Origin: an uncultured Cytophagia bacterium
GTDB taxonomy: Bacteria; Zhuqueibacterota; Zhuqueibacteria; Oceanimicrobiales; Oceanimicrobiaceae
Length of the DNA stretch: 64,000 nucleotides
Assembly: GCA_964539665.1 (NCBI GenBank)
Contig: CAZIKB010000003.1
Span: forward strand, 60,062 to 124,061
Direction: 5' to 3'
Below, piece by piece: positions 22,611 to 58,183 of the stretch. Numbering within the stretch: position 1 is the first letter of the stretch; the number at the start of each line of letters is the position of its first letter. A program made the translations under genes and the position numbers. Under the pieces are notes generated by a model. That model had not been told where the DNA came from, searched no databases, and was given only the letters and a program-made list of their open reading frames with translations.

Positions 22611-22611
22611 T

Positions 22612-35746: not shown

Positions 35747-35761
35747 GAGATTTCGATTCGA

Positions 35762-37219
35762 TTGTGTGACTTTATTATGAGCCGAGAGAACAAGTTTTTT
35801 AAAAATACACTCGCAATTTCGTTAGCACATGGACTGCAACCTTTTCTTTCTTTAGTATTATCGCTGGCAATAGCTCGACTGCTGGGCAAGGAAAGTTTTG
35901 GAGTCTATGCAACTATATTTTATTTGATTGCGATTTTCGAGATGATAAGTTCTTTAGGGGTGAAAACGGTTTTAACTCGCGAAGTAGCAAAAGATAAATC
36001 ATCTGCTTCAAATTACATCACAAGCAGTGTCATAGTTACGTTCGCGTTATCCATACTGGCCATTATTTTACTACATATTACTGTTCGGTCTATCAAGTAT
36101 GATGATATAATTTTGCAACCAGTTTACATCCTGGCCTGGTCTCTGATTGCTTCTGGAATTGCAGATTCTTTAGAAGGAATACTGCAAGGTTTGGAGAAAA
36201 TTCAAGCCATCGCGAGCGCCTGGATGATTGAGCAGATACTACGTGTGGCCGTAAGTCTCTTTATTATCTACAATGGATATGGCATAATTGAATTGGCGCT
36301 GGTTTATGCTGTGATACGCTATGTTTACCCTGTGCTTCTTTATTGGATGTTAATGAGGACGACAAAAAAAATAAGGTGGCAGCCGGACTTAAATTTAGTA
36401 AAAAAATTATTTTCAGCAACAAGAGTTTTTGGCCCAATAATGATTTTTGTTTCTGTATACTGGCGAATAGATTCTATTATATTAGCTAAGGTTTTAGATC
36501 TTAAGGATGTAGGCATTTATAATGCCGGCAATAAACTTTTTTGGTTTTTTATTATTCTGGTACGAAGTTTCTTTGCATCTTTTTATCCACTTGTTTCTGA
36601 TATATTTGCTAATCGAGCTTCACGGTTTGAAATTGTATGCAAGAAATCTATATTCTATTTATTGGCCTTACTGGTACCGATTGCTGTATCTATTACACTG
36701 TTTTCCGAACAAATTATAACAACATTGTGGGGCCAACAATACATTGGAGCGGGCACTGTTTTACAAATATTAATTTGGTGTACATTGCCATACGCTGTGT
36801 CCAAAGTGTTCGCGTATGCCTTTATCTCGAGCAATTTGCAGCGTTTTGATCTTTGGGTAAACATTATAGGGGTGGCTTTTAAAGTTACAATATTTACAAT
36901 AATGATAAATTTATATGGAGTTGTAGGTGGAGCCTGGGCAAATTTGATTGGCATGTTTTTTGTAGTGGTGATACAGTTGCCATTTGTTATGAATTATTTA
37001 TTTAAGTTTGAACTCAGTTCTATGTTAATGCCTTGTGTAAAACTTTTAATTGCTGTTTTTTCGATGTTTGTAATAGGAAAATTGTTCCCACATGTTAATT
37101 TCATTTTGATGGGAGTCGTAATAAATGTTATTTATTTTGCAACTTTATTTCTAATAAAAGTATTCAATGATGAAGATAAGTTACTTTTTCGTAAGTTATT
37201 ACATCTTAGCAGGACATAG
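35762..37219 (+). CDS. MOP/Wzx-family polysaccharide flippase (second copy)
   Basis: The 485 aa protein has about 14 TM helices. Confidence 0.6.
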   Translation: MCDFIMSRENKFFKNTLAISLAHGLQPFLSLVLSLAIARLLGKESFGVYATIFYLIAIFEMISSLGVKTVLTREVAKDKSSASNYITSSVIVTFALSILAIILLHITVRSIKYDDIILQPVYILAWSLIASGIADSLEGILQGLEKIQAIASAWMIEQILRVAVSLFIIYNGYGIIELALVYAVIRYVYPVLLYWMLMRTTKKIRWQPDLNLVKKLFSATRVFGPIMIFVSVYWRIDSIILAKVLDLKDVGIYNAGNKLFWFFIILVRSFFASFYPLVSDIFANRASRFEIVCKKSIFYLLALLVPIAVSITLFSEQIITTLWGQQYIGAGTVLQILIWCTLPYAVSKVFAYAFISSNLQRFDLWVNIIGVAFKVTIFTIMINLYGVVGGAWANLIGMFFVVVIQLPFVMNYLFKFELSSMLMPCVKLLIAVFSMFVIGKLFPHVNFILMGVVINVIYFATLFLIKVFNDEDKLLFRKLLHLSRT

Positions 37220-37248: not shown

Positions 37249-38628
37249 ATGTCTTTTAAAAAACCAAATATAATTTTAATTATGATAGATTGCGGGCGGG
37301 CTGATCATTTTTCTATTTATAATGATAGTAAAAATACGACTCCAAATTTAAAAAAAATAGCTGCGGAAAGCATGGTTTACAATAATGCTATCTCACCTGC
37401 CGGTTGGACCTTGCCAACCCATTCATCAATATTTACTGGTGTTTATCCCTCGCAACACGGCGCCCACAATGAAAATCATCAACTCTCAAATGAATACCCA
37501 ACGCTTGCAGAATTGCTTGTTGAACAAGGGTACAAGACTTTTGGAATCTGTACTATAGATTGGCTAAGTCAGGCTACCGGAGTAATTAGAGGATTCCAGG
37601 AATTTGATAACTTACATTTTAGTAAGTCAAAATTAATATTGAAAAGAATGTTACAATACCCCATAATTGGCGGGAAGGACTGCTGGGGATATGAAACCAA
37701 CAGAAAAGCGAAAAAATGGCTAAAACAAAATGATTCAGGCAATCCATTTTTTATGTATCTCCATTATAATGAATTGCATCTGCCTTACAACATACCTGAA
37801 AAAATATTGAAGAATTTTTTACCGGAAGATGTGACGGTTGCTAAGGCATTAAAAATTAATCAAGATGCCAAAAAATATTATGCCGGTATTGCAAAAATGA
37901 GTGCAGAGGATTTTAAAATACATAAAGCATTGTATGACGCCGGATTGAAATACACTGACGATTTAATAGGGCAATTGATTGATTTCTTAAGAAAGCAAGA
38001 TATTCTTGATAACACAATTCTTGTCATCACAAGTGACCACGGTGAAAGCTTAGGCGAACACGGACATTTTGACCATTATTACGTCCTTTATGAATCCCTG
38101 CTCCATGTGCCTTTAATGGTTAGATATTTCCCTGTTTTTGGCTCGGGAAAGTCAGATGCGCTTGTGCAAACTATTGATCTATATCCAACTTTATTACAAT
38201 TAGCCGGTGTACCAATTGAAAAATATGAACATCACGCTGCGTTAACCCTTCCCCCGGTTGGAAAAAATAAAGGGCGAGAATATGCGTATGCTGAACGCTT
38301 TCAGGATTTAAAAGGTTTAAAGGAAAGCTTCAAAAATCATGATTTATCACATTTGGAAAAATATGAGCAGGAACGTCTGACTGTTATTAGAGGCGAGCGA
38401 TATAAGCTTATTTATTCTATGCAAGGTCGTCATGAATTGTTCGATTTACACAATGATCCCCGCGAAGAAGAAAATATATTATTAAAAGAACCGGGAATAG
38501 CAGAAATCATGATGGATAAACTAAAAGAGTGGCAATCATCATTTCCATTAAAACAAACAGAAGGAGAAGAAGCATATTTTGATAAAGAGGCTGTTGAACG
38601 TCTAAAAGCATTGGGATATCTTGGTTAA
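37249..38628 (+). CDS. Sulfatase-family (alkaline phosphatase superfamily) protein with Thr at the nucleophile position and a C-terminal ...ERLKALGYLG tail
   Basis: It has a metal-binding IDCGRADH motif, a nucleophile region AGWTLPTHSSIFTGVYP (T-x-P-T-H instead of C-x-P-S-R) and a SDHGESLGEHGH motif. The C-terminus reads VERLKALGYLG. Confidence 0.65.
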   Translation: MSFKKPNIILIMIDCGRADHFSIYNDSKNTTPNLKKIAAESMVYNNAISPAGWTLPTHSSIFTGVYPSQHGAHNENHQLSNEYPTLAELLVEQGYKTFGICTIDWLSQATGVIRGFQEFDNLHFSKSKLILKRMLQYPIIGGKDCWGYETNRKAKKWLKQNDSGNPFFMYLHYNELHLPYNIPEKILKNFLPEDVTVAKALKINQDAKKYYAGIAKMSAEDFKIHKALYDAGLKYTDDLIGQLIDFLRKQDILDNTILVITSDHGESLGEHGHFDHYYVLYESLLHVPLMVRYFPVFGSGKSDALVQTIDLYPTLLQLAGVPIEKYEHHAALTLPPVGKNKGREYAYAERFQDLKGLKESFKNHDLSHLEKYEQERLTVIRGERYKLIYSMQGRHELFDLHNDPREEENILLKEPGIAEIMMDKLKEWQSSFPLKQTEGEEAYFDKEAVERLKALGYLG

Positions 38629-38684
38629 TTAATTATTACTTATCGACTAATCGATCCATGTATTAAAATTTAGCGAAGGTTAAA

Positions 38685-40538
38685 ATGTTTAATTACAATT
38701 CTGATAAAGTTAAATTACCTTATACATTTGCTAAAATGTGCAAAATTAAGGTACAATATTGTTTGGCGATAATGCCATTGTTTATTTTGTTTAATACGTC
38801 TTTTGCTCAAAGCCCGAAGCACAACTATCCTTTAATTGGATGGCAGACTTTTGGTGGAGCGGTCGATGATTTCTATGCTCGATTTGATCTTTTAGTAACA
38901 AAATCTTCAAGTAATGGTTTTGTAAAAAGATTAAAAGGCATAAATCCTGATATGTTAATCGTCTCGACTACAGACTGGAATACCGGGCGAGACATTGATA
39001 ACATGCCAGAGGAATGGTGGTTACGTGATTCAAATGGAAACGTGAAAATAATTTATGGCGGCTTTAAAATGGCGAACCTATCCGATCTTTGCCCAAAAGC
39101 TACACGGGGTGCATTTAGTGGGATGACCTATTCTGAGTATTTGCCTGTATTTTTGTCTAGTAGAATAGATTTAACCTATTTTGATGGAGTCGGTACTAAT
39201 GGCGTCTGGGGAAAGGATGGAATGGAATGGAATTGGAATCGTAATGAATGGTCTGATATTGACATTGATAATAACGGTGTCAATGATCATGATGAACACT
39301 CAAAAGATTGGTTCTTGACTCATTGGCAAGGTGGATTAGATGTCCTCATGTCAAAATTGCGTCAAATGATTGGACCGAATAAACTCCTACTGATAAATAG
39401 CGGGACCTCGCACTCCTGGGGCTGGGAGGAGTCCAATGGCATTATTGATGAAAAATTAACATCGTACTCTGACACTAAATTTAATTTAAATTATTATAAA
39501 GCCATTAAAAATGTGTCACAAAAACCTTTCATTACAGTTGCAGACGGTTTACCTTTTTATGGTAATCCAAATGTGCCGGATGAATCAAAAAATGATTATA
39601 TTGGTATGCGTTTTGGACTTGTAACCTGTATGTTTAATGATATATATTTCAGTTTTCAGAATATCCGGGCCAATGAACATTACTGGAGTTATTGGTATGA
39701 TGAATTTGATGTTAATCTCGGCAAACCAATTGGCCGCCCTTCTAAAATAAGAGAAGGACTTTGGGTGCGATTTTTTGATAACGGTGTTGCAATAGCGAGT
39801 ACAGATGGCTATTCTCAGGTTGTAACTGATTCTGATTTAAAAGGATTCTCTGAATATAGCGGACCTTATTATAGGTTCCTGGGAAGCCAAAATCCATCTT
39901 TCAACAACGGTCAAATATTCGATAGAGTAGAACTTGATGGACACATTCAGAGCTCAAGTAGAATTTTTGGTGATGGCATTTTATTGTTAAAAGAGCCAAC
40001 AGTTGTTGTTGCTGATATTATCATTGATAACAGTGATGCCGGTACTTCCCCATCAAGTTCTAAGGCTAAATTGAAAAATGGTTTTGTTCTTCAAACAGAC
40101 TGTAAATCTGGCTATGATTTTTACAAGTTACGCTGCTCAAGCTGGCAGGAAGTATACGGCTATGCCTATGCCCCGTCAGGAAACGGCGAAGCAATTTATC
40201 GCCCCAATATCGGCGTGGCGGGCGAGTATGAAGTATTCGAGTGGCATGGTAAAATGGATGGCGTTAATATGGCCACAAATGCAGTGTACAATATACTGCA
40301 TTCGAATGGACAGGATAGCAAACGAGTTAATCAATCTAATAACACCGGCCACTGGAATAGCCTGGGAGTTTATCAATTCAGAAAGGGCAGCGACCTTAAT
40401 GTGACAATAAAGGCACAAGGCGCGGATGGTTATGTAATGGCAGACGCTATTAAGTTTGTTAATCTTAGTTCAAAAGTAGAGCCTCCAGCGAATCTGTTGC
40501 CTCCGATTGGTGTTCGTGTGCAACAAAATAATAACTAA
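38685..40538 (+). CDS. Secreted glycoside-hydrolase-like protein with a C-terminal beta-sandwich (carbohydrate-binding-like) domain
   Basis: The protein is 617 aa with a signal peptide (MPLFILFNTSFAQS). The C-terminal domain contains ADAIKFV. Confidence 0.35.
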   Translation: MFNYNSDKVKLPYTFAKMCKIKVQYCLAIMPLFILFNTSFAQSPKHNYPLIGWQTFGGAVDDFYARFDLLVTKSSSNGFVKRLKGINPDMLIVSTTDWNTGRDIDNMPEEWWLRDSNGNVKIIYGGFKMANLSDLCPKATRGAFSGMTYSEYLPVFLSSRIDLTYFDGVGTNGVWGKDGMEWNWNRNEWSDIDIDNNGVNDHDEHSKDWFLTHWQGGLDVLMSKLRQMIGPNKLLLINSGTSHSWGWEESNGIIDEKLTSYSDTKFNLNYYKAIKNVSQKPFITVADGLPFYGNPNVPDESKNDYIGMRFGLVTCMFNDIYFSFQNIRANEHYWSYWYDEFDVNLGKPIGRPSKIREGLWVRFFDNGVAIASTDGYSQVVTDSDLKGFSEYSGPYYRFLGSQNPSFNNGQIFDRVELDGHIQSSSRIFGDGILLLKEPTVVVADIIIDNSDAGTSPSSSKAKLKNGFVLQTDCKSGYDFYKLRCSSWQEVYGYAYAPSGNGEAIYRPNIGVAGEYEVFEWHGKMDGVNMATNAVYNILHSNGQDSKRVNQSNNTGHWNSLGVYQFRKGSDLNVTIKAQGADGYVMADAIKFVNLSSKVEPPANLLPPIGVRVQQNNN

Positions 40539-41766
40539 TACCTCAAAAGGCAGAGCAATCAATTTGGTAATTAGCTACTTCAGTTATGCCTGGGATATAA
40601 ACGGTATTTCAGCCGGTGCGGCCATTAAAGCAAAAGAGTTTATCAACGCGATCGAAAAACACGGTCATACCGTCCATCTTGAATGGCGCATGCAACAACC
40701 AGGAAATGAACCGGATATTTCCACCAAAATTAAAGAAAGAATTAAACCATATTTGCAGAAGTATCTGCGTGAATCTCGTGTGCTGTTAAGTAATTTGGGA
40801 CACCTGAAAAATGAACACAAGATTCTTAAACAGCAAAAACCTGATATTTTTTTTCCACGTCTTGAATACGGAAATATCTCTTGTTTTTTACTATCTAAAT
40901 GGTTGAATATTCCAACAGTTGTAGAGGTTGATTGTCCGCCAACTCATGAATGGGAAACATTTTATGCTCAGGATGCACTAAAATTTGGTGATTTGTCGTT
41001 AAAATTGGAAATAGTAACTTTGAAGCAGGCTGATGCTGTTATAGTTCAATCTAATCAGTTGATGAGTTACTATGAGTCGCTGGGCGTGTCAAAAGAGAAA
41101 ATATATGTGATTCCGAATGCGGCTGATATAAAAAAATTTCAACCGCGTGAGAAGTATGAGTCTGTTGTTTCTGAATATAAGTTGCAGGATAAAATAGTAA
41201 TTGGTTGGATAGGCGCCGGCTATGCCTGGACCGGCATTGATGTTGTCATAGATATGGCTAAAAAATTAATGCGAAATTACCCTTCAGTGCGATTTTTAAT
41301 GGTAGGCAGTAAACACAATATGGACGTTTTTCAGACACATTTTAATTCCAAAGATTTTGAGGACAGAGTAATTTTACCTGGCTTTGTACCGCATGAAAAA
41401 ATGCCTGATTATCTTTCATGTATGGATATTGTGTTGGCGCCGTATCCAAAACTTGACTTTTTCTACGCATCATCCATGAAACTTTTTGAATATATGGCAG
41501 CCGGAAAAGCAATTGTAGCTACCCGCATCGGTCAGATGGCAGAGGTAATTCAGGATGGAATAAATGGATTCTTATTTGAGCCTGATTTGTCCAGTGAGTT
41601 GTATGAAAAGGTGGAATTATTAGTCACATCCGAAGCGCTGCGTAAGAAGATATCTCAAAATGCACGGTACGATGCTGAACGAAAGTGGAATTGGGACCAA
41701 GTCGGAAATAAAATGATTCAGGTATTTGAAGAGGTTTTAACTAAGCGAAATGCACATCGCTGTTGA
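40507..41766 (+). CDS. GT4 glycosyltransferase
   Basis: It has a TTG start that overlaps the upstream gene, so the true start is uncertain. The C-domain has FVPHEKMPDYL...FEYMAAGKAIVAT and an E-x7-E motif. Length is 419 aa. Confidence 0.65.
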   Translation: MVFVCNKIITNTSKGRAINLVISYFSYAWDINGISAGAAIKAKEFINAIEKHGHTVHLEWRMQQPGNEPDISTKIKERIKPYLQKYLRESRVLLSNLGHLKNEHKILKQQKPDIFFPRLEYGNISCFLLSKWLNIPTVVEVDCPPTHEWETFYAQDALKFGDLSLKLEIVTLKQADAVIVQSNQLMSYYESLGVSKEKIYVIPNAADIKKFQPREKYESVVSEYKLQDKIVIGWIGAGYAWTGIDVVIDMAKKLMRNYPSVRFLMVGSKHNMDVFQTHFNSKDFEDRVILPGFVPHEKMPDYLSCMDIVLAPYPKLDFFYASSMKLFEYMAAGKAIVATRIGQMAEVIQDGINGFLFEPDLSSELYEKVELLVTSEALRKKISQNARYDAERKWNWDQVGNKMIQVFEEVLTKRNAHRC

Positions 41767-41922
41767 AGAAGTAACCTTCCGATGGTTTATTAATATATAA
41801 ATTCCTGTATGTTGAGTTTAATTGATTTACACACTACATACAGTAAGTCAATAATCCTTCTGAAGGTTTTCAGCACTTAATCAACAAAGTCATGCACGTT
41901 TGAAAATTACCAGTAAAATTCT

Positions 41923-43731
41923 ATGATTAAAAAAATATTAATCTTTGTAGCAGTTACAAGTATCCTTTTAGCCGTGGTTTTATGGTTTGGTCAAAGACCT
42001 ATTTTAGAGTGGGTCAAAAAGAATCCGGATCTTTATAGGGTACTTCAAAAGGGAAATGCGAAATTTAAATCAATCACGAATCAAACTAATAGCTTGGGCG
42101 ATTTAAATAAAAATGAAAGCATGACTGAAGCACATTTGGTGATAGACTACAATAAGTCACTCGGCCAATTTAACAAATTTTGGCGTGGATTTGGAATAGA
42201 TTCTTTTAATAATGGAATTTTGTTACCGTTCAATTATGAATTTTTAAAAACAGCCGGCCAATCAAAGGATGACAGTCAACTTTTCACTCACGTTAATGTC
42301 AAAGGAATATTTGCTGACCCTCCAAATAACAAAGTCAATGATATTGGAGGTCATGTCTACAAAGAAAATGCCGATGGAAAAGTAGAATATAATTGGAAAA
42401 TTGTTGACAAAGTTTTTGATAGTATATTAGAAAACAATTTAAAACCAGTGATTTCTTTAAGCTACATGCCCGAGGACCTGGCTTCAAATGTGAATAAAAA
42501 AAATCCATGGAATCATGCTGTAGTTTCACCGCCAACAGACTACAATAAGTGGCGGGACCTGGTTTATGCCACGATTGAACATTTACAGGATAGGTACGGT
42601 ACGGATGAGATAAAGGATTGGTATTTTGAAGTTTGGAACGAACCAGACATGCCTCAATTTTTTTGGAAAAAACATCCTGATCGCAAACGATATCCCAAAA
42701 GAGGGGATAATTTAGAATATTTTAAACTGTATGATTATACTATCGATGGTGCCATTGACGCCGAACCTGATTTACAAATTGGCGGGCCTGCAATAGCCGG
42801 TGATATTTTTTTATTTATTAATGAATGGTTTTCGCATTGCCTGAATGCAAAAAATTACAAAACCGGCAAAACAGGTACAAGGATTGATTTTTTATCACGC
42901 CATTGTTACGGTAATATTGAAAATAGAATTTTACCCGGTATTATGCAATTTGTGGGTAAGTCTAAAGAAAACGGTCTGGAGATTTTTAATAGATCAAAAT
43001 TTCTGATTTCTGAAGCAGGGCCGAGTACCGTGCCTAAAAAATGGCTAAATACTCGCTATGTCGCTGCCTGGATTGTAAAATTGATTGACGGTATTTGTTA
43101 TCTGGGCGACCAGAAAGGGGAAGACTATATTCCTGATTTGCTGTTATTCTGGACAAAACCGATCCCAGCGAATTTTGATACCCATTTTGGTTTGATGACT
43201 GCTCTGGGTAATAAATGGCACCCATCATCAAACGCGTTGATTAAAAGACCCGCATTCAACGCTTTTGATTCTTTAAATAAAATGGGACCGGTTAGATTGG
43301 TAGTAGAAGGTACACAATTTGGCGACCCAATTCATGCTTTGGCAGCAAAAAGTCAAAACGAGTCAGTTCAGATATTATTATATCATTTAAGGGAAGATGA
43401 TTATTTTAATGAAAACTCACGCAACTACCCGGCTTATTTAAAAATAAATAATTTACCCGAAGGGAAATACAGATCTGATATGTATGTAATTGATGAATCC
43501 CGCAGCAACGGCTTTACACTTTGGAAGAGCCTTGGCAGACCAGCTAAGCCAGGCAAAGCACAATTGCGACAACTACAACAAAACGATGATTTAGAGCTGG
43601 TCGAAACCAAATTTGAATCCATCAATAATGAAAGAAAATATGAAAAATTGATTAATTTGCAAAATAATAGTGTAGCTTTATTAATTTTATCAAAGGTCAA
43701 TTCTGTTGGTAACCTTAATGCAGCAAATTAA
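41923..43731 (+). CDS. Membrane-anchored GH39-like glycoside hydrolase (PslG-like)
   Basis: It has an N-terminal TM anchor, and the WYFEVWNEPD motif is the GH39/GH-A catalytic acid-base NEP signature. Length is 602 aa. Confidence 0.6.
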   Translation: MIKKILIFVAVTSILLAVVLWFGQRPILEWVKKNPDLYRVLQKGNAKFKSITNQTNSLGDLNKNESMTEAHLVIDYNKSLGQFNKFWRGFGIDSFNNGILLPFNYEFLKTAGQSKDDSQLFTHVNVKGIFADPPNNKVNDIGGHVYKENADGKVEYNWKIVDKVFDSILENNLKPVISLSYMPEDLASNVNKKNPWNHAVVSPPTDYNKWRDLVYATIEHLQDRYGTDEIKDWYFEVWNEPDMPQFFWKKHPDRKRYPKRGDNLEYFKLYDYTIDGAIDAEPDLQIGGPAIAGDIFLFINEWFSHCLNAKNYKTGKTGTRIDFLSRHCYGNIENRILPGIMQFVGKSKENGLEIFNRSKFLISEAGPSTVPKKWLNTRYVAAWIVKLIDGICYLGDQKGEDYIPDLLLFWTKPIPANFDTHFGLMTALGNKWHPSSNALIKRPAFNAFDSLNKMGPVRLVVEGTQFGDPIHALAAKSQNESVQILLYHLREDDYFNENSRNYPAYLKINNLPEGKYRSDMYVIDESRSNGFTLWKSLGRPAKPGKAQLRQLQQNDDLELVETKFESINNERKYEKLINLQNNSVALLILSKVNSVGNLNAAN

Positions 43732-43767
43732 GTTCAATAATTTGAATATTTAAAAGGAGATAACATA

Positions 43768-45645
43768 TTGAATTCAAATTATTCCAAACAAAATAGCGTA
43801 ATTCATCAAATTAAGATTAGCTTTTTGGGGGGACTTTTGACCGGTATAATTATCGGTGGCTCTCTGGCAATTTATAACACCTGGTTTTTAAATTACTATA
43901 TTCAGAAAGGGCTAACTCATTTTGTCATTGAAATATTCAGTGAATATATCATTCAAGCCACTTTGGCTGCAACTTTGATCTTTTTATTTTTATTACCTTT
44001 TGTGGCTTTTTTTAGTCAAACCATTTCAGAAATTAGGGCCATTCGTCTGGCAAGATTCACATTAATGCTGGTCGGAATAATCTGGGTAATTGGCGGCTAT
44101 CAAATAAACAAATCTATCTGGTTCCCACCGATAGCTTCTGCGAAAGGCATTTTAGGAAACATGTTTTACAGTTTCATCTGTCTGGGATTGGCTTTTCTTT
44201 TATACAAAATAATGATGGCATTTCGTTTAAAACTGCCTTTGCCATTTGCTGGATTATTGCATAAATTATACAATGGCAAATTATTGAGTGCAATTGCGTC
44301 AATTTTTATTGTTGCGAATGGATGTACCATTTATCATCTCGCAAACCATAAACCTAATAGTCCCAATGTTGTAATTCTTTCGATTGATACGTTACGTGCT
44401 GATCATCTTGGTTGTTATGGTTATGAAAGGAATACGAGCCCAACTATTGATAAATTAGCCAGCGAGGGCGTTCAATTCTCTAATTGTTATGCTCAACGTG
44501 GTCTAACCTGGCCGTCACTAACATCAATAATGACTGCCATGTATCCGAAAACTCATGGAGTCAGACGCAATCAGGTTCCGCTTGACGGCAAAAATATTAC
44601 CATCGCCGAAATTCTTAAAAATGAAGGGTACAAGACCGGTGCATTTCTTGCAAATTATTATTTTTCACCAAATCGTGGTTTCGACACCAAAATGGGTGGT
44701 GAAATTGGCGATCTGGATTATGCCATCACGGGGCAAGCTTTAGGTTGGCTGAATGGGATTAATCCTCAGGAAGACAATTTTTTCTTGTGGATTCACTATA
44801 AAAATCCTCATTTACCTTATGAACCGCCTGAACCGTTTACAAATATGTTTGACTCAACTTATACCGGCCAGTACGATGGTTCAAGGAAGTCAGTCAATTC
44901 GATTTATGTGAATAAAACAGAACTCGAAGAAAGAGATCTTGACCACATTGTTGCACTTTATGATGCTGAGATAAGATCTACAGACAGCTATATTGAACTT
45001 ATCCTGCAAAAGCTCAAAGCCATGAATGTGTATGATAATACAATTATTGTCTTCATCTCTGACCATGGTGAAGAGCTTTATGAGCGTAATTATTATTTTG
45101 ATCATGCTTGCTCAATCTACGATGGTGTTTTGCGAATTCCTTTGGTCATAAAATATTCGGATGTTATTCCGGCTGGGAAAATAATGGAAAATCAGATTGA
45201 AAGTATTGATATCACCCCAACCATCCTCAATATTTTAAAAGTTCCTTTACGTGATGAATTTGAAGGTCGCAGTATATTTGGAATGATATTAGATGATTCT
45301 TCTGATGTATGGTTTCCTTCTTTTGCTGACCGCTCAATTGTCATAAATTCCATTCGAACACCGCAGTGGAAATATATTTATAATCCGGAAGATTACCATG
45401 CAGTGTGTGTAACTGGCGCCGTAGAGGATGATGGAGAAGGTTATGATGTTGAAATTGAAGAACTTTATAATATACAAACCGATCCGTCTGAGCAAGTAAA
45501 TCTGGCTGAGCAATTTCCGAATATTGCTAAAGAATTACGCGCAGAGATCATAAACTGGCTCAATACCAACAAGAAAGTACATAAAGAATATACACTGTCC
45601 AAAGAAGCAGAAAAAAGACTGCGTGCCCTGGGATACGTCAAATGA
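43768..45645 (+). CDS. Polytopic membrane protein with a sulfatase-family (LtaS/EptA-like) domain, Thr nucleophile and a C-terminal ...KRLRALGYVK tail
   Basis: It has about 5 N-terminal TM helices. The sulfatase domain has a VVILSIDTLRADH motif, a nucleophile region GLTWPSLTSIMTAMYP (T-W-P-S-L instead of C-x-P-S-R) and an ISDHGEEL motif. Length is 625 aa with a TTG start. Confidence 0.65.
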   Translation: MNSNYSKQNSVIHQIKISFLGGLLTGIIIGGSLAIYNTWFLNYYIQKGLTHFVIEIFSEYIIQATLAATLIFLFLLPFVAFFSQTISEIRAIRLARFTLMLVGIIWVIGGYQINKSIWFPPIASAKGILGNMFYSFICLGLAFLLYKIMMAFRLKLPLPFAGLLHKLYNGKLLSAIASIFIVANGCTIYHLANHKPNSPNVVILSIDTLRADHLGCYGYERNTSPTIDKLASEGVQFSNCYAQRGLTWPSLTSIMTAMYPKTHGVRRNQVPLDGKNITIAEILKNEGYKTGAFLANYYFSPNRGFDTKMGGEIGDLDYAITGQALGWLNGINPQEDNFFLWIHYKNPHLPYEPPEPFTNMFDSTYTGQYDGSRKSVNSIYVNKTELEERDLDHIVALYDAEIRSTDSYIELILQKLKAMNVYDNTIIVFISDHGEELYERNYYFDHACSIYDGVLRIPLVIKYSDVIPAGKIMENQIESIDITPTILNILKVPLRDEFEGRSIFGMILDDSSDVWFPSFADRSIVINSIRTPQWKYIYNPEDYHAVCVTGAVEDDGEGYDVEIEELYNIQTDPSEQVNLAEQFPNIAKELRAEIINWLNTNKKVHKEYTLSKEAEKRLRALGYVK

Positions 45646-45854
45646 AATCCTTATCCGAATTATCTCAGCATCGAGCATAAAATTGTCATACCGAATCCGT
45701 TTTAGCGAGTGAGTAATCTGAGTTCTTACAAGATTTAGCTTTGTAGTAGTGTTTGAACCGGAAATAAATGGATAACCTGCAATAATGGACTAAAGATAGT
45801 ATTATAATTTGTTGACCTTACTATATCCAAAATTTAAGTGAAGGATGATTTGAG

Positions 45855-47513
45855 ATGAACAAAACAAATCATAGAGGAATTTTATTCTTTTTGAAGATAG
45901 GTATAATATCCGGTTTAATGTATGGCTTAATTTTAGGCTTGGTGAGATTATTAAGTCATGACGCTGTAAGAGCCTACTATTCAGCAAATTTTACAGATGT
46001 CCTGTTTTCATATACACAGGATTTTCTTAATCAAACCGTCATAATAACTTTGCTCGTATTTATTGTAATTGAAATGACTTTCTATTTTTTAAACAAATTA
46101 TTTGCAACCGCAGATAATAAGATAGTAAAATATTCAAGAATGATCGCGATTAATGGATTTTTCTTTTTATTAATTTTCTATTATTTAAATATTCAACACT
46201 GGTTTCCATCGATGTTGTCTAATAGCGCTTTATTGTACTACATAATTATTCTCGCGGGCAATGCTTTATTACTGTTATTATTCAATCGAATCAGAAACAA
46301 AATAGTTGTTCATGATTCTTTTAAATCCATTAAATTGCCAGTAATTACTGTTATCGTTTTATTATTGTTTAGCAATGTATTTAGTTATTTTCAAAAGAGT
46401 AAATTAAAAGCTGAAACACCGATAAATGTCATAATGATTGTGATTGATGCCCTGCGCGCCGGGCAGTTAGGTTGTTACGGATATGATCTGCCTACAACTC
46501 CGAACATCGATGCATTTGCTCAAGAAAGCCTTAGATTCACGAGCAGCTTTTCACCGAGCAACCATACTAAACCTTCCACAGCATCGCTTTTTACTTCGCT
46601 CTATCCTTCGCAACATAACGTTATTCTAGGAAATAGGTCAAATAATTCCGGGGAGTATTTCTCAGATGTTTTAGATGAATCATTCAAAACGATTGCAGAA
46701 TATTTGTATGAAGCAGATTATAACACGGCCGGGTTTCTAAACCAGGGTCAATTGCGTAAATATTTGGGATTTGCACAGGGATTTATCTATTATAATTCCC
46801 GGTTAGGAAGGGCGCCGCAAATTAATCGTGAATTTTTGCGTTGGCTGCCCATGAATAAACATAGAAAATTTTTTGCATACATACATTATTTGGATGTACA
46901 CGGCCCTTATGATCCGCCTGAGAAATATCGAAAAATATTTAATGTGAATGAGCTGACCAGCGAAATTCCGGAGCGTGCTAAAAATTGGCGAAAATTTAAA
47001 AAAGACTTTGAGAGCGGTGCTTTAGAATTTACGCCTGAGGACCTGGAAAATTTGAAAGCGCTTTACAATGCTGAACTTAAATCCGTTGATGATCAGCTTG
47101 GAATACTTTTTCAGGAATTGAAAAGGCAAGGAGTATATGAAAACAGTCTAATCATAATCACGGCTGACCACGGTGAGTCGTTTGTTGAACATGGCGAAAT
47201 AGATCATGGCTCCACTTTGTTCGATGAAGTTTTACGCGTACCTTTAATAATCCATTATCCTAACCAGGAAAAAACCGGCGTAGTAGATGCAAATGTGCAA
47301 ACTCTTGATTTACTGCCGACCATTTTAGATTATTTAAATATTACGCCTTCAAAAGACTTGATGGGACAAAGTATTTTAAAGTATTCAAATGGCAGCATTG
47401 AGCACGATGAATATCCTATTTTCTGTGAAAGAAATAATCTGGTCTCATTGATCTTTGGTAAAGATAAATATATTTTTGATAAAATAGCCAGACGGGGGAA
47501 CTCTATAACTTAG
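45855..47513 (+). CDS. Membrane-anchored sulfatase-family protein (third copy); the reading frame is interrupted at a GGGGG run and the ORF continues to 47691 in another frame
   Basis: It has a VIMIVIDALRAG motif, a nucleophile region NHTKPSTASLFTSLYP (Thr, no CxPxR) and an ITADHGESF motif. The annotated frame stops at 47513 after ...ARRGNSIT. The +2 frame from the G-run encodes GELYNLEIDPGERN...IEKLKSLGYIK*, ending at 47691. Confidence 0.55.
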   Translation: MNKTNHRGILFFLKIGIISGLMYGLILGLVRLLSHDAVRAYYSANFTDVLFSYTQDFLNQTVIITLLVFIVIEMTFYFLNKLFATADNKIVKYSRMIAINGFFFLLIFYYLNIQHWFPSMLSNSALLYYIIILAGNALLLLLFNRIRNKIVVHDSFKSIKLPVITVIVLLLFSNVFSYFQKSKLKAETPINVIMIVIDALRAGQLGCYGYDLPTTPNIDAFAQESLRFTSSFSPSNHTKPSTASLFTSLYPSQHNVILGNRSNNSGEYFSDVLDESFKTIAEYLYEADYNTAGFLNQGQLRKYLGFAQGFIYYNSRLGRAPQINREFLRWLPMNKHRKFFAYIHYLDVHGPYDPPEKYRKIFNVNELTSEIPERAKNWRKFKKDFESGALEFTPEDLENLKALYNAELKSVDDQLGILFQELKRQGVYENSLIIITADHGESFVEHGEIDHGSTLFDEVLRVPLIIHYPNQEKTGVVDANVQTLDLLPTILDYLNITPSKDLMGQSILKYSNGSIEHDEYPIFCERNNLVSLIFGKDKYIFDKIARRGNSIT

Positions 47514-47833
47514 AAATAGATCCGGGAGAGCGGAATAAAATTAATTCCCGGAATAGTGAATTAGAGCAGAAAATGAAAGCTATGGTTTTAGAATGGAGTG
47601 AGGCCATGAAACTCGTTAGTAAAAAGTCAGAAGGTACTAAATTAGATAAAGAAACCATCGAAAAACTTAAAAGTCTGGGATATATCAAATAAGACTGTTG
47701 AATTAAGGTCAAGTGCCATCTAATATTCTCAGTCGGGCGAATTCCATGGTTGGAAAAACGCATTCACTTCATTATTAGCCACGTGGCAGAGTGATTCCAA
47801 ATCAACGTACACTTCAGAATAAACCTAAATGAA

Positions 47834-48290: not shown

Positions 48291-48590
48291 ATGTCGGAAC
48301 AGAACCGAAAAAGAGTAATTGGTAAGGCAATTACTTATAGAGGACTTGGCACATTAGTTACTATATCAGTAATATATATTTTCACTGGAAAATTGGCGCT
48401 TTCATTTGGTGTCGGACTTGTTGAGGTCGTTGCTAAAATGCTTTTTTATTACCTGCATGAACGACTTTGGGAGAAAATATCATGGGGTAAAGATAAACAT
48501 CCTCTTGCTGGAATCCCTGTTAAAAAGGAGCTTGAACCTGAAGACAAAGTATTGCTTGAAGAGAGATTAAAAGAGCTTGGATATTTATAA
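48291..48590 (+). CDS. DUF2061-family small membrane protein with a C-terminal ...EERLKELGYL tail
   Basis: It has the RVIGKAITYRGLGT...YYLHERLW motif (DUF2061). Length is 99 aa, with an AGGAAA RBS. Confidence 0.6.
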   Translation: MSEQNRKRVIGKAITYRGLGTLVTISVIYIFTGKLALSFGVGLVEVVAKMLFYYLHERLWEKISWGKDKHPLAGIPVKKELEPEDKVLLEERLKELGYL

Positions 48591-48611: not shown

Positions 48612-50795
48612 ATGATGAATCGAAAATACTCGTTAATTACTTTACTCATTTTATTGGTATTCTTAATTATCGATGCACAGCCTGCTTTTGCATATATCGG
48701 CCCCGGCGCCGGTTTTGCATTTTTAACTTCATTTGCAATGCTATTTGCCAGTTTCTTTATGGCTTTTTTTACATTGCTAACCTGGCCTTTCCGGGTTTTT
48801 TTACGGTTTTTCAAAAGAAGAAAAGCTTTAGCCAGAGCTAAAACAGATCGGGTTGTGATTCTGGGCCTTGACGGTCTTGACCCAACTATCACAGAACGCA
48901 TGCTACAGGAAGGTAAATTACCAAATTTGAAAAAACTTAAAGAGCAAGGTTCTTACAAACATTTACAGACCACTTATCCAGCTCTCTCGCCAGTTGCCTG
49001 GTCAGCCTTTGCAACTGGAGTTAATCCTGGTCGACATAACATTTTTGATTTTCTTTCACGCAATCGATTCAACTATTTACCCGAATTATCCTCTTCAAAA
49101 GTTGGGTCTCCAAATCGAAAAATATCCCTGGGAAAATTCGAAATCCCGCTTGGCAAACCGATTGTTCGATTATTACGTCGCAGCAAAAGCTTCTGGACAA
49201 TATTGGGAGAGAACGGTATTTTCAGTCATGTACTTCGTGTACCAATCACTTTCCCACCTGAAAAATTTAACGGAGCGTTACTTTCAGCGATGTGTACTCC
49301 GGACCTCTGGGGAACGCAAGGCACTTTTTCCTACTTCACGACTGATACAACTAATAAAAAATTTAAAGAGGGAGGAGAGACTGCAGTTGTGAAATGGGTA
49401 GGCGATAGAATTGAGGGATTTATTAAAGGCCCTGAGAACTCCATTACTAAAAAGCATGAGTCGATGAAGCTCCCTTTTGAAGTAAAGATTTTGAGTGATG
49501 ACGAAATAGAACTGATAATAGAAAAAAAGAAATACAACCTAAAAAAGAAAAAATACACCGATTGGATTGAATTGAAATTTAAAGCCGGAATGGGGATCAA
49601 AGTACATGGTATTGCACGATTTTACCTGCTTGAAACCAATCCAGTTTTTAGATTGTATATGACGCCCATCAATATCGATCCGGAAAAGCCAGCGCTGCCA
49701 ATTTCTTACCCTTATTTCTATTCCGTTTATCTTTCTAAGTTATTCGGGAAATTCGCGACATTGGGTTTAGCGGAAGATACCTGGGCTTTGAACGAGGGCG
49801 TTCTTGATGAGGAAGCTTTTTTAGAGCAGGCATATCTAATTCATGAAGAACGTGAAAAACAATTTTTTCATACTTTAAGCAAAACCAGAAAAGGTTTGTG
49901 TTCAGTGGTATTTGATGCCAGTGATCGAATTCAGCACATGTTTTTCCGAACGCTTGAAGATGACCATCCTGCCAACCGAGGCAAAGAAACTGAAAAATAT
50001 AAAAATGTTATTGCCGATATGTATGAGCAAATGGATGACCTCGTTGGTAGAACCATGGCTAAAATAAATAAAGATGAGGTTTTTATTGTGCTCTCTGATC
50101 ATGGTTTTAAATCATTCAGACGCGGTATAAACCTGAATTCCTGGTTAAAAGCTAATGGTTATCTAAAGCTGAAAGACGGTAGGGAAGAGAGTGGGGAATT
50201 TTTTCAGGGTGTTGATTGGGAAAATACAAAAGCCTATGCATTCGGACTGACGGGTATTTACATCAATGTTAAAGGCCGGGAAAAGAACGGCATTGTCGCA
50301 CCAGGTGAAGAATTAAAAACACTCAAAGATGAGTTGATTGCTAAACTTTCCGGGATGTTAGATCCTGAAACCGGGGAAGTTGCCATTATCGAGATGTTTG
50401 ATAATAGTGAAATTTACAAGGGACCTTATACTAACAATGGACCCGACTTGATTAGTGGCTACAATAGCGGCTATCGAATTTCATGGAATGGCGCAACCGG
50501 GAATGTCAATGAGCAAATTTTTGAAGACAACGTTAAAGCCTGGAGCGGCGATCATTGTGTTGACCCGAGGCTTGTCCCCGGGGTGATTTTTAGCAACCAA
50601 AAAATTATGGCCGCTAAACCAGGTTTGATGGATATAGCGCCAACAGTTCTTGAATTATTTGGAATAACTAAACCAGGCTATATGGAAGGCCAGGATATCT
50701 TAAGTAGTGAACCAGAAGAGACAGCAAAAGATGAAGATATTCCCACCATAGTGCCAACAGTAAAAAAAACGGAGGTGGCTTCGGTCAATGAATAA
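48612..50795 (+). CDS. Membrane-anchored alkaline-phosphatase-superfamily protein (type I phosphodiesterase/nucleotide pyrophosphatase-like)
   Basis: It has two N-terminal hydrophobic segments followed by a KRRK cluster. Motifs include LGLDGLDP, a nucleophile region ALSPVAWSAFATGVNPGRHNIFDF and a later LSDHGF. Length is 727 aa. Confidence 0.6.
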   Translation: MMNRKYSLITLLILLVFLIIDAQPAFAYIGPGAGFAFLTSFAMLFASFFMAFFTLLTWPFRVFLRFFKRRKALARAKTDRVVILGLDGLDPTITERMLQEGKLPNLKKLKEQGSYKHLQTTYPALSPVAWSAFATGVNPGRHNIFDFLSRNRFNYLPELSSSKVGSPNRKISLGKFEIPLGKPIVRLLRRSKSFWTILGENGIFSHVLRVPITFPPEKFNGALLSAMCTPDLWGTQGTFSYFTTDTTNKKFKEGGETAVVKWVGDRIEGFIKGPENSITKKHESMKLPFEVKILSDDEIELIIEKKKYNLKKKKYTDWIELKFKAGMGIKVHGIARFYLLETNPVFRLYMTPINIDPEKPALPISYPYFYSVYLSKLFGKFATLGLAEDTWALNEGVLDEEAFLEQAYLIHEEREKQFFHTLSKTRKGLCSVVFDASDRIQHMFFRTLEDDHPANRGKETEKYKNVIADMYEQMDDLVGRTMAKINKDEVFIVLSDHGFKSFRRGINLNSWLKANGYLKLKDGREESGEFFQGVDWENTKAYAFGLTGIYINVKGREKNGIVAPGEELKTLKDELIAKLSGMLDPETGEVAIIEMFDNSEIYKGPYTNNGPDLISGYNSGYRISWNGATGNVNEQIFEDNVKAWSGDHCVDPRLVPGVIFSNQKIMAAKPGLMDIAPTVLELFGITKPGYMEGQDILSSEPEETAKDEDIPTIVPTVKKTEVASVNE

Positions 50796-52795: not shown

Positions 52796-52987
52796 ATGTT
52801 AGGTCCCAAAATTAAATTAGAAAAAGAATTATATGATCGAATTAAAAAATTTTCTGAAATCGCTGGTTATTCTTCTGTTGAAGAATTTGTAACTCATGTG
52901 CTGGAAAAAGAACTGTCGACAATAGATGACTCTGAATCAGAAGAAGAAGTGAAAAAACGATTACAGGGATTGGGATATTTGTCTTAA
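52796..52987 (+). CDS. Small protein (63 aa) with a ribbon-helix-helix-like N-terminus, an acidic linker and a C-terminal ...KKRLQGLGYLS tail
   Basis: It has a strong AGGAG RBS. The N-terminal sequence KIKLEKELYDRIKKFSEIAGYSSVEEFVTHVLEKEL resembles CopG/Arc RHH proteins. Confidence 0.45.
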   Translation: MLGPKIKLEKELYDRIKKFSEIAGYSSVEEFVTHVLEKELSTIDDSESEEEVKKRLQGLGYLS

Positions 52988-57559: not shown

Positions 57560-58183
57560 ATGAAGACATCTAAAAAAGCATGTACAATTTGGTTCACGGG
57601 TTTACCTTCCTCTGGAAAATCTACTTTGGCGGAGATGCTGGAAAAGGAGTTAAAAAACCGCGGAGAAAGGGTCGAAATTTTAGATGGCGATGTAGTCCGT
57701 ACGAATTTAAGCAAAGGCTTGACCTTTAGTAAGGAAGATCGGGACATCAATATCCGGAGAATAGGATTTGTTTGTCATTTGTTGACAAGAAATGGTGTGT
57801 TCGCAATTTCTGCAGCAATATCTCCTTATAGAAATATACGAGATGAAAACCGTGCACTCATAGGCAACTTTGTCGAGGTTTTTGTTGATTGTCCACTGGA
57901 TGAATGTATTAAAAGAGATGTAAAAGGTCTTTATAAAAAAGCATTGGCCGGCGAAATAAAGGAATTTACCGGCGTTTCTGATCCTTATGAAGAACCTCTC
58001 AAACCTGAAATTGTGATTGACGCCCACGGAGAAGAACCCAAAGATAGCCTTCAAAAAATACTGGCGAGATTAGTAGAATTAGGTTACTTATCCAATAACG
58101 GTCTTGATACATCTGACAAAGCATATTCTGATGAAGAAGAAGAGGTAGTGAGAAAGCGGCTGAGTGATCTGGGCTATATTTAA
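57560..58183 (+). CDS. cysC: Adenylylsulfate (APS) kinase with a roughly 50-aa C-terminal extension carrying two LGY[IL] tail motifs
   Basis: It has the P-loop [14 protein letters not shown] and the APS-kinase core. The extension reads ...[40 protein letters not shown]. Confidence 0.85.

What the first reader, a model, noticed from the sequence alone, without database searches (positions are those of the whole stretch)
37249..47691. Three sulfatase-family proteins have Thr in place of the formylglycine Cys/Ser and lack the C-x-P-x-R maturation motif
Where classical sulfatases carry C/S-x-P-S-R-x-x-x-x-T-G, these proteins read GWTLPTHSSIFTG (37249), GLTWPSLTSIMTA (43768) and NHTKPSTASLFTS (45855). 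The nucleophile position is Thr, and the Arg required for fGly generation is replaced by H, L or T. This is the signature of AP-superfamily transferases such as LtaS, EptA/MCR or OpgB, not of sulfate-ester hydrolases. Two copies have N-terminal polytopic membrane domains like LtaS/EptA. They are therefore more likely to add a substituent to the polymer (phosphoglycerol, phosphoethanolamine or possibly sulfate) than to act as sulfatases. Automatic annotation as sulfatase would be misleading.
Basis: partly seen in the sequence, partly recalled or inferred. Interest (0 to 1): 0.7.

Follow-up and report, generated by a model that had tools for sequence, protein, structure and literature searches.

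The report
Sulfatase look-alikes that likely add sulfate
Three genes that look like sulfate-removing enzymes carry a threonine where such enzymes need a modified cysteine; they sit in a sugar-polymer gene cluster next to the genes that make activated sulfate, and most likely decorate the polymer, probably with sulfate, rather than strip sulfate off.

Summary
All three PF00884 proteins have Thr exactly where S1 sulfatases have the formylglycine Cys/Ser, and Arg of CxPxR is replaced by H, L or T. The Thr is invariant in both protein families. The third gene is broken by a one-base deficit in a G5 run.

These are not fGly sulfatases. They are also not LtaS/EptA/OpgB family members, because by sequence and fold they sit closest to S1 sulfatases. 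Only the catalytic residue set (Asp/Thr/Asp-His plus a His 12 residues after DHG) is EptA-like.

The context changes the reading. The genes lie in a conserved polysaccharide block with an ATP sulfurylase, an APS kinase and four NPP-type enzymes, and no canonical sulfotransferase occurs in 64 kb.

Six proteins here share an unusual C-terminal tail, "RLxxLGY": the three sulfatase-like proteins, APS kinase, DUF2061 and a 63-aa ORF. Decoding published cloning primers shows the same tail on Halobacterium Agl30 and Agl31. These are sulfatase-fold proteins shown genetically in 2025 to be N-glycan sulfotransferases.

Best reading (about 0.45): they are bacterial Agl30/31-type polysaccharide sulfotransferases. 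The main rival is LtaS/EptA-like phospho-group transfer, especially for the two copies with a 5-TM domain and a predicted outward-facing catalytic domain.

The parts
37249..38628 (+). W1: soluble (no TM, no signal peptide) Thr-type sulfatase-fold protein, 459 aa. Thr54 is the nucleophile position. Ends ...AVERLKALGYLG.
43768..45645 (+). W2: 5-TM N-terminal domain plus a Thr-type sulfatase-fold domain, 625 aa. Thr247 is the nucleophile position. Ends ...AEKRLRALGYVK.
45855..47692 (+). W3: 5-TM domain plus a Thr-type sulfatase-fold domain. Thr238 is the nucleophile position. The reading frame is broken by a 1-nt deficit in the G5 run at 47494-47498; the repaired protein is 612 aa and ends ...KLKSLGYIK.
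48291..48590 (+). DUF2061 small membrane protein (99 aa) carrying the same LGY tail (...EERLKELGYL). Conserved at this position in relatives.
48612..52782 (+). Two membrane-anchored NPP-type (PF01663) AP-superfamily proteins, 727 and 664 aa. Conserved next to the sulfatase-like genes.
52796..52987 (+). 63-aa ORF with an LGY tail (...KKRLQGLGYLS). Conserved as a 61-63 aa ORF in L085, L095 and L096.
54799..57435 (+). ATP sulfurylase (PUA_2 + PF01747) fused to a PF01663 AP-superfamily domain, 878 aa.
57560..58183 (+). APS kinase CysC, 207 aa, ending in the LGY tail (...[11 protein letters not shown]).
58183..59529 (+). Soluble NPP-type (PF01663) protein, 448 aa, conserved after CysC.
33947..37219 (+). 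Carbamoyltransferase and Wzx flippase immediately upstream of W1. The carbamoyltransferase-W1 pairing is conserved in orthologous clusters.

Best explanation
W1, W2 and W3 are catalytically active, metal-dependent alkaline-phosphatase-superfamily enzymes built on the S1-sulfatase scaffold. The formylglycine machinery has been replaced by a Thr nucleophile and histidines. They most likely act as O-sulfotransferases that decorate the polysaccharide made by this cluster, as bacterial counterparts of the Halobacterium N-glycan sulfotransferases Agl30 (membrane-bound) and Agl31 (soluble). The sulfuryl group would come from PAPS (or APS) made by the ATP sulfurylase and APS kinase encoded in the same block. 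Proposed chemistry (inferred, not shown): the metal-bound Thr alkoxide attacks the sulfur of the phosphosulfate donor, giving a sulfo-Thr enzyme plus PAP; a sugar hydroxyl then takes the sulfuryl group. Without the geminal diol of fGly, the intermediate cannot collapse by elimination, so transfer is favoured over hydrolysis. W1 would act in the cytoplasm on the lipid-linked repeat unit before the adjacent Wzx flips it. Shown: the sequence anatomy, conservation, synteny and the shared tail. Inferred: the activity, the donor and the mechanism.
Against: (1) I could not obtain the Agl30 or Agl31 sequences. Direct homology, and whether they carry Thr, remain untested; the link rests on the tail, the annotation and haloarchaeal relatives. 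(2) Agl30/31 activity is known only from genetics. No donor, mechanism or in-vitro assay has been published. (3) The residue set is that of phosphoryl transferases: Asp/Thr/Asp-His plus a His that aligns with the EptA 'YLHG' His. The sulfate-binding Arg and Lys of sulfatases are lost. A covalent Thr-sulfate intermediate has no precedent I know of. (4) For W2 and W3, five TM helices and the positive-inside rule (8.1 vs 4.2 K+R across 34 sequences) put the catalytic domain outside the cell, away from PAPS. (5) None of 80 genome loci holding more distant family members has Sat or CysC within 10 kb, and their direct neighbours are heterogeneous. (6) The four NPP-type proteins could be the PAPS-using enzymes instead.
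Confidence: 0.45

Rival explanations
1. They are LtaS/EptA/OpgB/BcsG-like phospho-substituent transferases. The Thr forms a phospho-(glycerol or ethanolamine) enzyme intermediate from a membrane phospholipid and passes it to the polysaccharide at the outer face of the membrane. This fits W2 and W3 best.
For: The Thr aligns with the catalytic Thr of EptA, and the invariant His 12 residues after the DHG His aligns with the EptA His. The D/T/D-H ligand set matches. W2 and W3 have five TM helices and a predicted extracytoplasmic catalytic domain, the LtaS/EptA architecture. Phospho-Thr chemistry is well established for this superfamily (own knowledge).
Against: The proteins are not family members by sequence or fold. 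W1 has no membrane domain and is cytoplasmic, so a lipid donor is unlikely for it. This reading does not explain the conserved linkage to Sat and CysC, or why CysC shares their C-terminal tail. It also does not explain the tail shared with Agl30/31, which are tied to sulfation.
Confidence: 0.25
2. They are hydrolases rather than transferases. They could be phosphodiesterases or phosphatases that trim or release the polymer or its lipid carrier, or that clear PAP, PAPS or APS.
For: The fold and metal site are compatible with hydrolysis. The window has no CysQ-type PAP phosphatase. The cluster also encodes other polymer-processing hydrolases, GH39 and GHL15.
Against: Three to four paralogs per cluster suggest site-specific decoration rather than housekeeping. 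The four NPP-type proteins are better candidates for nucleotide handling. The Agl30/31 gain-of-function result points to a transferase.
Confidence: 0.12
3. They are non-catalytic pseudo-sulfatases that bind or chaperone the polymer, or true sulfatases that work without fGly.
For: Loss of the canonical nucleophile is typical of pseudoenzymes. W3 carries a frameshift.
Against: The substituted Thr, the metal ligands and two His residues are invariant or nearly so across thousands of 50% sequence clusters in several phyla and in archaea. The sulfate-binding Arg and Lys are missing, which argues against sulfatase activity. W3 orthologs are intact.
Confidence: 0.06

Closest known systems
Agl30 (VNG1056C) and Agl31 (VNG1057C), Halobacterium salinarum N-glycan sulfotransferases (Zaretsky et al. 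2025, PMC11980604)
   Same: Both are sulfatase/AP-fold proteins annotated as sulfatases, with nearest solved structures 5G2U and 6HHM. They are encoded in a glycan-assembly cluster as a membrane-bound plus a soluble paralog. They end in the same L-x-x-L-G-Y tail, as decoded from the published primers.
   Different: They are archaeal and act on a DolP-linked N-glycan. Agl30 is predicted to have one TM segment, not five. No PAPS genes are reported beside them.
S1 formylglycine sulfatases and phosphonate monoester hydrolases (e.g. choline sulfatase 6G5Z/7PTH, SpAS1 4UPI, FA22070 6HHM, BT4656 5G2V)
   Same: These are the best sequence and fold matches (E 1e-30, TM 0.65-0.73). They share the N-terminal AP core and the C-terminal SGSH_C-type subdomain, the DxxR..D, HxPH/Y and DHG motifs, and the LYDLxxDPxE motif.
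   Different: Cys/Ser-x-P-x-R is replaced by Thr-x-P-x-[H/L/T]. The Lys after DHG is replaced by His. The GKWH Lys/His pair is absent. No maturase gene is nearby. The LGY tail is present.
EptA/MCR-1, EptB, LtaS, OpgB and BcsG phospho-group transferases
   Same: They share the Thr nucleophile, the acidic/Thr/Asp-His metal ligands and a His about 12 residues after DHG. W2 and W3 share the 5-TM N-terminal domain with a predicted outward-facing catalytic domain.
   Different: Profile scores are much weaker than to sulfatases, and none reaches an NCBIfam cut-off. The TM domain is unrelated to PF08019. W1-W3 have an extra C-terminal subdomain. W1 is soluble. The genes are linked to PAPS synthesis.
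Canonical PAPS-dependent sulfotransferases (PF00685, PF03567, PF13469 and others) of sulfated CPS/EPS clusters
   Same: The proposed role and the genomic logic are the same: PAPS genes sit inside a polysaccharide cluster.
   Different: The fold is unrelated (P-loop-like, metal-independent, direct in-line transfer). None is encoded in this window.

Membership tests
S1 formylglycine-dependent sulfatases | PF00884 core plus a C-terminal subdomain, with overall sequence and fold similarity | tested here: met
   PF00884 E<=3e-47 and PF16347. All of the top 50 Foldseek PDB hits are S1 sulfatases or PMH.
S1 formylglycine-dependent sulfatases | Cys or Ser in C/S-x-P/A-x-R that is converted to formylglycine | tested here: not met
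   Thr with H/L/T at the Arg position in residue-level alignments. No alternative motif elsewhere in the proteins. Thr is conserved family-wide.
S1 formylglycine-dependent sulfatases | Sulfate-binding Lys after the DHG/DNG motif, and the Lys/His pair (GKWH) | tested here: not met
   An invariant His (W1 H276, W2 H446) replaces the Lys. The GKWH region reads ICTIDW, FLANYY or FLNQGQ.
S1 formylglycine-dependent sulfatases | A maturase (FGE or anSME) available | tested here: inconclusive
   No maturase among ORFs of 150 aa or more in the 64-kb window. It could be encoded elsewhere in the genome.
LtaS / EptA / OpgB / BcsG phospho-group transferases | Thr (or Ser) nucleophile on a Zn/Mn site formed by an acidic residue, Asp-His and further His residues | tested here: met
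   The HMM alignment of the W1 family to E. coli EptA places Thr on Thr and H276 on the EptA His. D14 and D263-H264 are conserved.
LtaS / EptA / OpgB / BcsG phospho-group transferases | Polytopic N-terminal membrane domain with the catalytic domain outside | tested here: inconclusive
   W2 and W3 have five TM helices, and the positive-inside rule gives a 2:1 bias for the domain being outside. W1 has none. The TM domains hit no Pfam family, including PF08019.
LtaS / EptA / OpgB / BcsG phospho-group transferases | Sequence membership (NCBIfam or Pfam family models at curated cut-off) | tested here: not met
   The best EptA/MCR/LtaS model scores are 17-50 bits against cut-offs of 404-1250. Family profiles score AslA above EptA, EptB, OpgB and BcsG.
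Agl30/Agl31-type sulfatase-fold sulfotransferases | AP/sulfatase fold with nearest solved structures BT1596 (5G2U) and FA22070 (6HHM) | tested here: met
Agl30/Agl31-type sulfatase-fold sulfotransferases | Encoded in a glycan-assembly cluster as membrane-bound plus soluble paralogs | tested here: met
   paper
Agl30/Agl31-type sulfatase-fold sulfotransferases | C-terminal L-x-x-L-G-Y tail (my own criterion, derived from their primers; not a published defining feature) | tested here: met
   The primers decode to HLEDLGYL and LEELGYT. W1, W2 and W3 end in LKALGYLG, LRALGYVK and LKSLGYIK.
Agl30/Agl31-type sulfatase-fold sulfotransferases | Direct sequence homology to VNG1056C/VNG1057C, and the identity of their nucleophile residue | not testable with these tools
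   The sequences could not be retrieved. The metagenome scan with a primer gave only chance hits. The representative search did not return them.
Agl30/Agl31-type sulfatase-fold sulfotransferases | Sulfotransferase activity | not testable with these tools
   This needs biochemistry or genetics.
Canonical PAPS sulfotransferases | Sulfotransfer_1/2/3/4/5 or Stf0 domain | tested here: not met
   No such Pfam hit for W1-W3 or for any ORF of 150 aa or more in the window.

The most novel reading that the evidence does not exclude
The block encodes a sulfation relay run by alkaline-phosphatase-superfamily enzymes, part of it outside the cytoplasm. PAPS is made by Sat-AP and the LGY-tailed CysC. Membrane-anchored NPP-type enzymes load the sulfuryl (or phosphosulfate) group onto a lipid carrier, which crosses the membrane, possibly with help from DUF2061 or the 276-aa membrane protein. 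The 5-TM enzymes W2 and W3 then transfer it from that lipid donor to the polymer in the periplasm through a covalent Thr-sulfate, much as EptA uses phosphatidylethanolamine. The shared 'RLxxLGY' tail would be a docking peptide that assembles the cytoplasmic members into one complex.
Probability: 0.08. Interest if true: 0.92.

Novelty: new variant of a known kind. Interest (0 to 1): 0.62.

Why it matters
If these proteins are sulfotransferases, a very large family would be a second, structurally unrelated class of carbohydrate sulfotransferase. A haloarchaeal member retrieves about 11,000 50%-identity clusters at E<=1e-30 (a count that may include classical sulfatases). Public databases call these proteins 'sulfatase' or 'arylsulfatase A-like'. 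Counts of 'sulfatases' used to infer degradation of sulfated glycans in Planctomycetota, Acidobacteriota, Anaerolineae, KSB1 and haloarchaea would then be inflated by biosynthetic enzymes. It would also give a tractable, soluble bacterial enzyme (W1) for working out the unknown donor and mechanism of Agl30/31. The LGY tail would serve as a simple sequence flag for recognising the family and its partners. If the enzymes instead transfer phospho-groups, they are an S1-sulfatase-derived lineage that converged on EptA chemistry. That is of interest for enzyme evolution but less surprising.

Tried and rejected
1. Haloferax Agl7 (HVO_2046) as a sulfatase-like precedent. The papers show it is needed for sulfation, but none that I could read gives its family. 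I left it as an unverified memory lead.

2. Retrieving VNG1056C/57C. An exact-match metagenome scan with the 1057 3' primer returned two unrelated proteins that contain LEELGYT by chance (L089, L090). A search of 1.84 billion representatives with haloarchaeal P0075 did not return them. Short qPCR primers were uninformative, apart from VNG1063H 'VHYFQPH', which resembles the family HYxxPH motif.

3. General co-occurrence of the family with Sat/CysC. It was 0 of 80 distant genome loci, so the linkage is specific to this lineage.

4. The 'Mn-dependent arylsulfatase' NF052527 / 9KOQ as a non-fGly relative. It has Cys-x-P-x-R, so I rejected it.

5. The LGY tails as a repeated DNA element. They share only 14-18 of 27 nt and use different codons, so conservation is at the protein level.

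6. AFDB Foldseek, to look for annotated relatives. The library was not available.

7. Active-site geometry. Model coordinates are not exposed, so only alignment-based mapping was possible.

8. DUF2061 literature. Nothing functional was found.
Full report
OBSERVATION

The window is one long plus-strand polysaccharide cluster. Three ORFs match Pfam PF00884 (Sulfatase) with E-values from 3e-47 to 3.5e-54, and also match the C-terminal SGSH_C domain PF16347:
- W1, 37249-38628, 459 aa
- W2, 43768-45645, 625 aa
- W3, 45855-47513

Residue-level phmmer alignments to solved S1 sulfatases (4upi, 6hhm, 4uph, 5g2v, 6s20, 9koq) put each Thr on the formylglycine Cys/Ser column. They put H, L or T on the Arg column of CxPxR. 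No other [CS]xPxR exists in the three proteins.

The substitution is a family trait, not an error:
- Thr fills the column in 120 of 123 aligned sequences (W1-W3 plus 120 W1 homologs), with consensus W-T-L-P-S-H-A-S-[LMI]-F-T-G.
- It is invariant in the 34-sequence W2 alignment.

W3 is interrupted. Adding one G to the G5 run at 47494-47498 restores a 612-aa protein with the conserved ELYNLEIDPGER...KLKSLGYIK end. The three catalytic domains are 30-35% identical to each other.

WHAT THEY ARE NOT

They cannot be fGly sulfatases, for three reasons:
- The nucleophile is Thr.
- The Arg, the Lys after DHG and the GKWH Lys/His pair are replaced.
- No FGE or anSME is encoded by any ORF of 150 aa or more in the window.

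The SulfAtlas authors already noted that many PF00884 seed sequences have Thr and should not be called sulfatases. The bare observation is therefore not new.

They are also not members of the LtaS/EptA/OpgB/BcsG families:
- All 50 top Foldseek PDB matches of a high-confidence W1 model (pLDDT 94.5) are S1 sulfatases or phosphonate monoester hydrolases.
- NCBIfam EptA/MCR/LtaS models score 17-50 bits against cut-offs of 404-1250.
- HMMs of the W1 and W2 families score E. coli AslA at 82.7 and 69.8 bits. EptA scores 57.9 and 35.3, EptB 33.2 and 39.1, OpgB about 8, and BcsG does not match.
- The N-terminal membrane domains hit no Pfam family even at E<=1.

WHAT THE ACTIVE SITE LOOKS LIKE

Conserved positions in W1 numbering are D14, R17, T54, P56, S60, H177, D263-H264-G265 and H276; H58 is the consensus at its column. 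The W2 equivalents are T247, H348, D432-H433 and H446.

In the profile alignment to E. coli EptA, the family Thr falls on the EptA catalytic Thr. The invariant His 12 residues after the DHG His falls on the EptA 'YLHG' His, where AslA has its Lys one position away. The scaffold is therefore that of a sulfatase, while the catalytic residue set is that of an EptA/LtaS-type Thr-metal enzyme.

TOPOLOGY

W1 has no hydrophobic segment or signal peptide and should be cytoplasmic. The AlphaFold model of W2 (pLDDT 85.7) has five long TM helices at 11-41, 50-85, 92-115, 125-151 and 170-193. Hydropathy gives five for W3 as well.

Across the 34-sequence family, the N-terminus and loops 2 and 4 carry 8.1 K+R on average. 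Loops 1 and 3 and the post-TM5 stretch carry 4.2. This favours N-in with the catalytic domain out, at moderate strength.

CONTEXT

Upstream of the three genes lie carA/carB, two carbamoyltransferases, two Wzx flippases, a Wzy-like protein, two PMT_2 proteins and many GTs.

Between and after them lie, in order:
- a GHL15/Golvesin_C protein, a GT4 and a GH39
- a DUF2061 membrane protein
- two membrane-anchored NPP-type (PF01663) proteins
- a 63-aa ORF
- a 276-aa membrane protein
- a methyltransferase
- an ATP sulfurylase fused to a PF01663 domain
- the APS kinase CysC
- another NPP-type protein

No canonical sulfotransferase family hits any ORF of 150 aa or more. In characterised sulfated-capsule clusters, PAPS genes inside a polysaccharide cluster come with sulfotransferases and are treated as the hallmark of sulfation.

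The arrangement is conserved:
- W2 orthologs (51-58% identity) in three long contigs, one labelled candidate division KSB1, sit in arrays of three or four tandem sulfatase-like genes. A heparinase II/III-like gene follows the array. In two contigs an NPP gene comes next, preceded by DUF2061 in one of them.
- Two contigs found through the Sat-AP protein (76-78% identity) run from a sulfatase-like gene through the same genes to Sat-AP and CysC; one continues to two further NPP genes.
- W1 orthologs (48-50% identity) follow a carbamoyltransferase in Wzx/Wzy/GH39 clusters.

The linkage is specific to this lineage. None of 80 genome loci holding more distant family members (26-37% identity, many phyla) has Sat or CysC within 10 kb. 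Their direct neighbours are heterogeneous.

THE SHARED TAIL

Six different proteins in the window end in an acidic stretch followed by [EK][RK]L-x-x-LGY[LIV]: W1, W2, W3, DUF2061, the 63-aa ORF and CysC. Only 12 matches to L..[LIM]GY exist in all six frames of 64 kb.

Conservation is at the amino-acid level. The tails share 14-18 of 27 nt and use different codons.

In 88 fetched loci, 75 of 10,691 ORFs end this way. Of these, 65 are sulfatase-like. The rest include NPP-type proteins, DUF2061, the small ORF and the CysC of an Anaerolineae MAG. Orthologs keep the tail. L452, G456 and Y457 are invariant or nearly so in the W1 family, including archaea.

I know of no name for this motif. Its function is unexplained, and it occurs on proteins predicted to lie on both sides of the membrane.

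THE LITERATURE LINK

Zaretsky et al. 2025 (PMC11980604) studied Halobacterium salinarum VNG1056C (Agl30, membrane-bound) and VNG1057C (Agl31, soluble). Both are annotated as AP-domain or sulfatase-like, and their best structural matches are 5G2U and 6HHM.
- Each is required for one of the two sulfations of the DolP-linked N-glycan.
- Each causes sulfation of the Haloferax volcanii glycan when expressed there.
- A follow-up paper places the step on the cytoplasmic face before flipping.
- No donor, catalytic residue or mechanism is discussed.

Their cloning primers decode to the C-termini ...HLEDLGYL and ...LEELGYT, and a VNG1063H primer encodes KELGYIE. This is the same tail.

Haloarchaeal members of the W1 family that I could read carry WTLPSH or WTPPSH (one paralog has WSQPSV), DHGE..GEH...H and the tail. 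They sit among GT and flippase genes. A haloarchaeal member retrieves 10,954 50%-identity clusters at E<=1e-30. Of 141 new top hits, 121 have the tail and 111 match the Thr motif. I could not obtain the Agl30/31 sequences themselves, so the family assignment is inferred rather than shown.

MECHANISM AND RANKING

Best reading (0.45): these are Agl30/31-type polysaccharide O-sulfotransferases fed by the cluster's own PAPS pathway. W1 would act on the lipid-linked unit before the neighbouring Wzx flips it.

A plausible chemistry is attack of the metal-bound Thr alkoxide on the sulfur of PAPS, followed by transfer to a sugar hydroxyl. Loss of the fGly geminal diol would block the eliminative, hydrolytic release that sulfatases use. 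This is inference only. A covalent Thr-sulfate has no precedent I know of, and the residue set is typical of phosphoryl transfer.

Main rival (0.25): LtaS/EptA-like transfer of phosphoglycerol or phosphoethanolamine. This fits W2 and W3 best, given their 5-TM architecture and probable outward-facing domain. It does not explain W1, the Sat/CysC linkage or the tail shared with CysC and Agl30/31.

Lesser rivals: hydrolase roles (0.12), and a pseudoenzyme or fGly-independent sulfatase (0.06).

VERDICT

The bare Thr-for-fGly point is already known for PF00884. What is new and testable is the combination of four things: an S1-like scaffold with EptA-like residues, conserved linkage to PAPS synthesis, a tail shared with APS kinase, and the same tail on the only characterised sulfatase-fold sulfotransferases.

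Noticed in passing
window 38602-38628, 45619-45645, 47666-47692, 48567-48590, 52961-52987, 58160-58183: Six unrelated proteins end in the same tail, an acidic stretch plus [EK][RK]LxxLGY[LIV]: three sulfatase-like proteins, DUF2061, a 63-aa ORF and APS kinase. The tail also occurs on NPP-type proteins and CysC in other loci, and on Halobacterium Agl30/Agl31 as decoded from published primers. Its function is unknown. It appears on proteins predicted to lie on both sides of the membrane.
   Followed up: partly
window 54799-57435: ATP sulfurylase is fused to a PF01663 (NPP-type) AP-superfamily domain. At least 120 database clusters with 60% identity or more share this architecture. It lay next to an APS kinase inside a polysaccharide cluster in three of the four contigs examined; the fourth is cut off just after it. 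The role of the AP domain (pyrophosphatase, PAP or APS handling, or transfer) is unknown.
   Followed up: partly
window 47494-47498: A one-base deficit in a G5 homopolymer splits W3. Orthologs are intact. It could be an assembly error, a pseudogene or a slippage site.
   Followed up: yes
window 52796-52987: A conserved 63-aa ORF whose N-terminal half looks like a ribbon-helix-helix (only a weak DUF7557 hit, E=0.004), joined to the LGY tail. It is present as a 61-63 aa ORF in L085, L095 and L096.
   Followed up: partly
window 21552-27620 and 33947-35746: A dedicated carbamoyl-phosphate synthase (carA, carB) and two carbamoyltransferases sit inside the cluster. The polymer is probably carbamoylated as well.
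   Followed up: no
window 48612-52782 and 58183-59529: There are three further NPP-type AP-superfamily proteins. The 727-aa one has a two-helix hairpin followed by a strongly basic stretch, which suggests a cytoplasmic catalytic domain. Homologs of the two membrane-anchored ones and of the 276-aa membrane protein also follow a W1-family gene in a Planctomycetales MAG (L015).
   Followed up: partly
window 61276-62013 and 61766-62389: The GT2 ORF and the DUF2304 ORF overlap by about 250 nt in different frames. This may be a second frameshift or a mis-called start.
   Followed up: no
L084-L086, L095, L096: Relatives carry an 860-aa heparinase II/III-like gene between the sulfatase-like array and DUF2061. 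It is absent from this window, where only about 600 bp separate W3 from DUF2061. It could be a lyase or a uronate epimerase-like enzyme.
   Followed up: no
L060 13456-14871 (-): One haloarchaeal paralog has Ser (WSQPSV) instead of Thr at the nucleophile position but keeps DHG and the LGY tail. The family therefore tolerates Ser.
   Followed up: no
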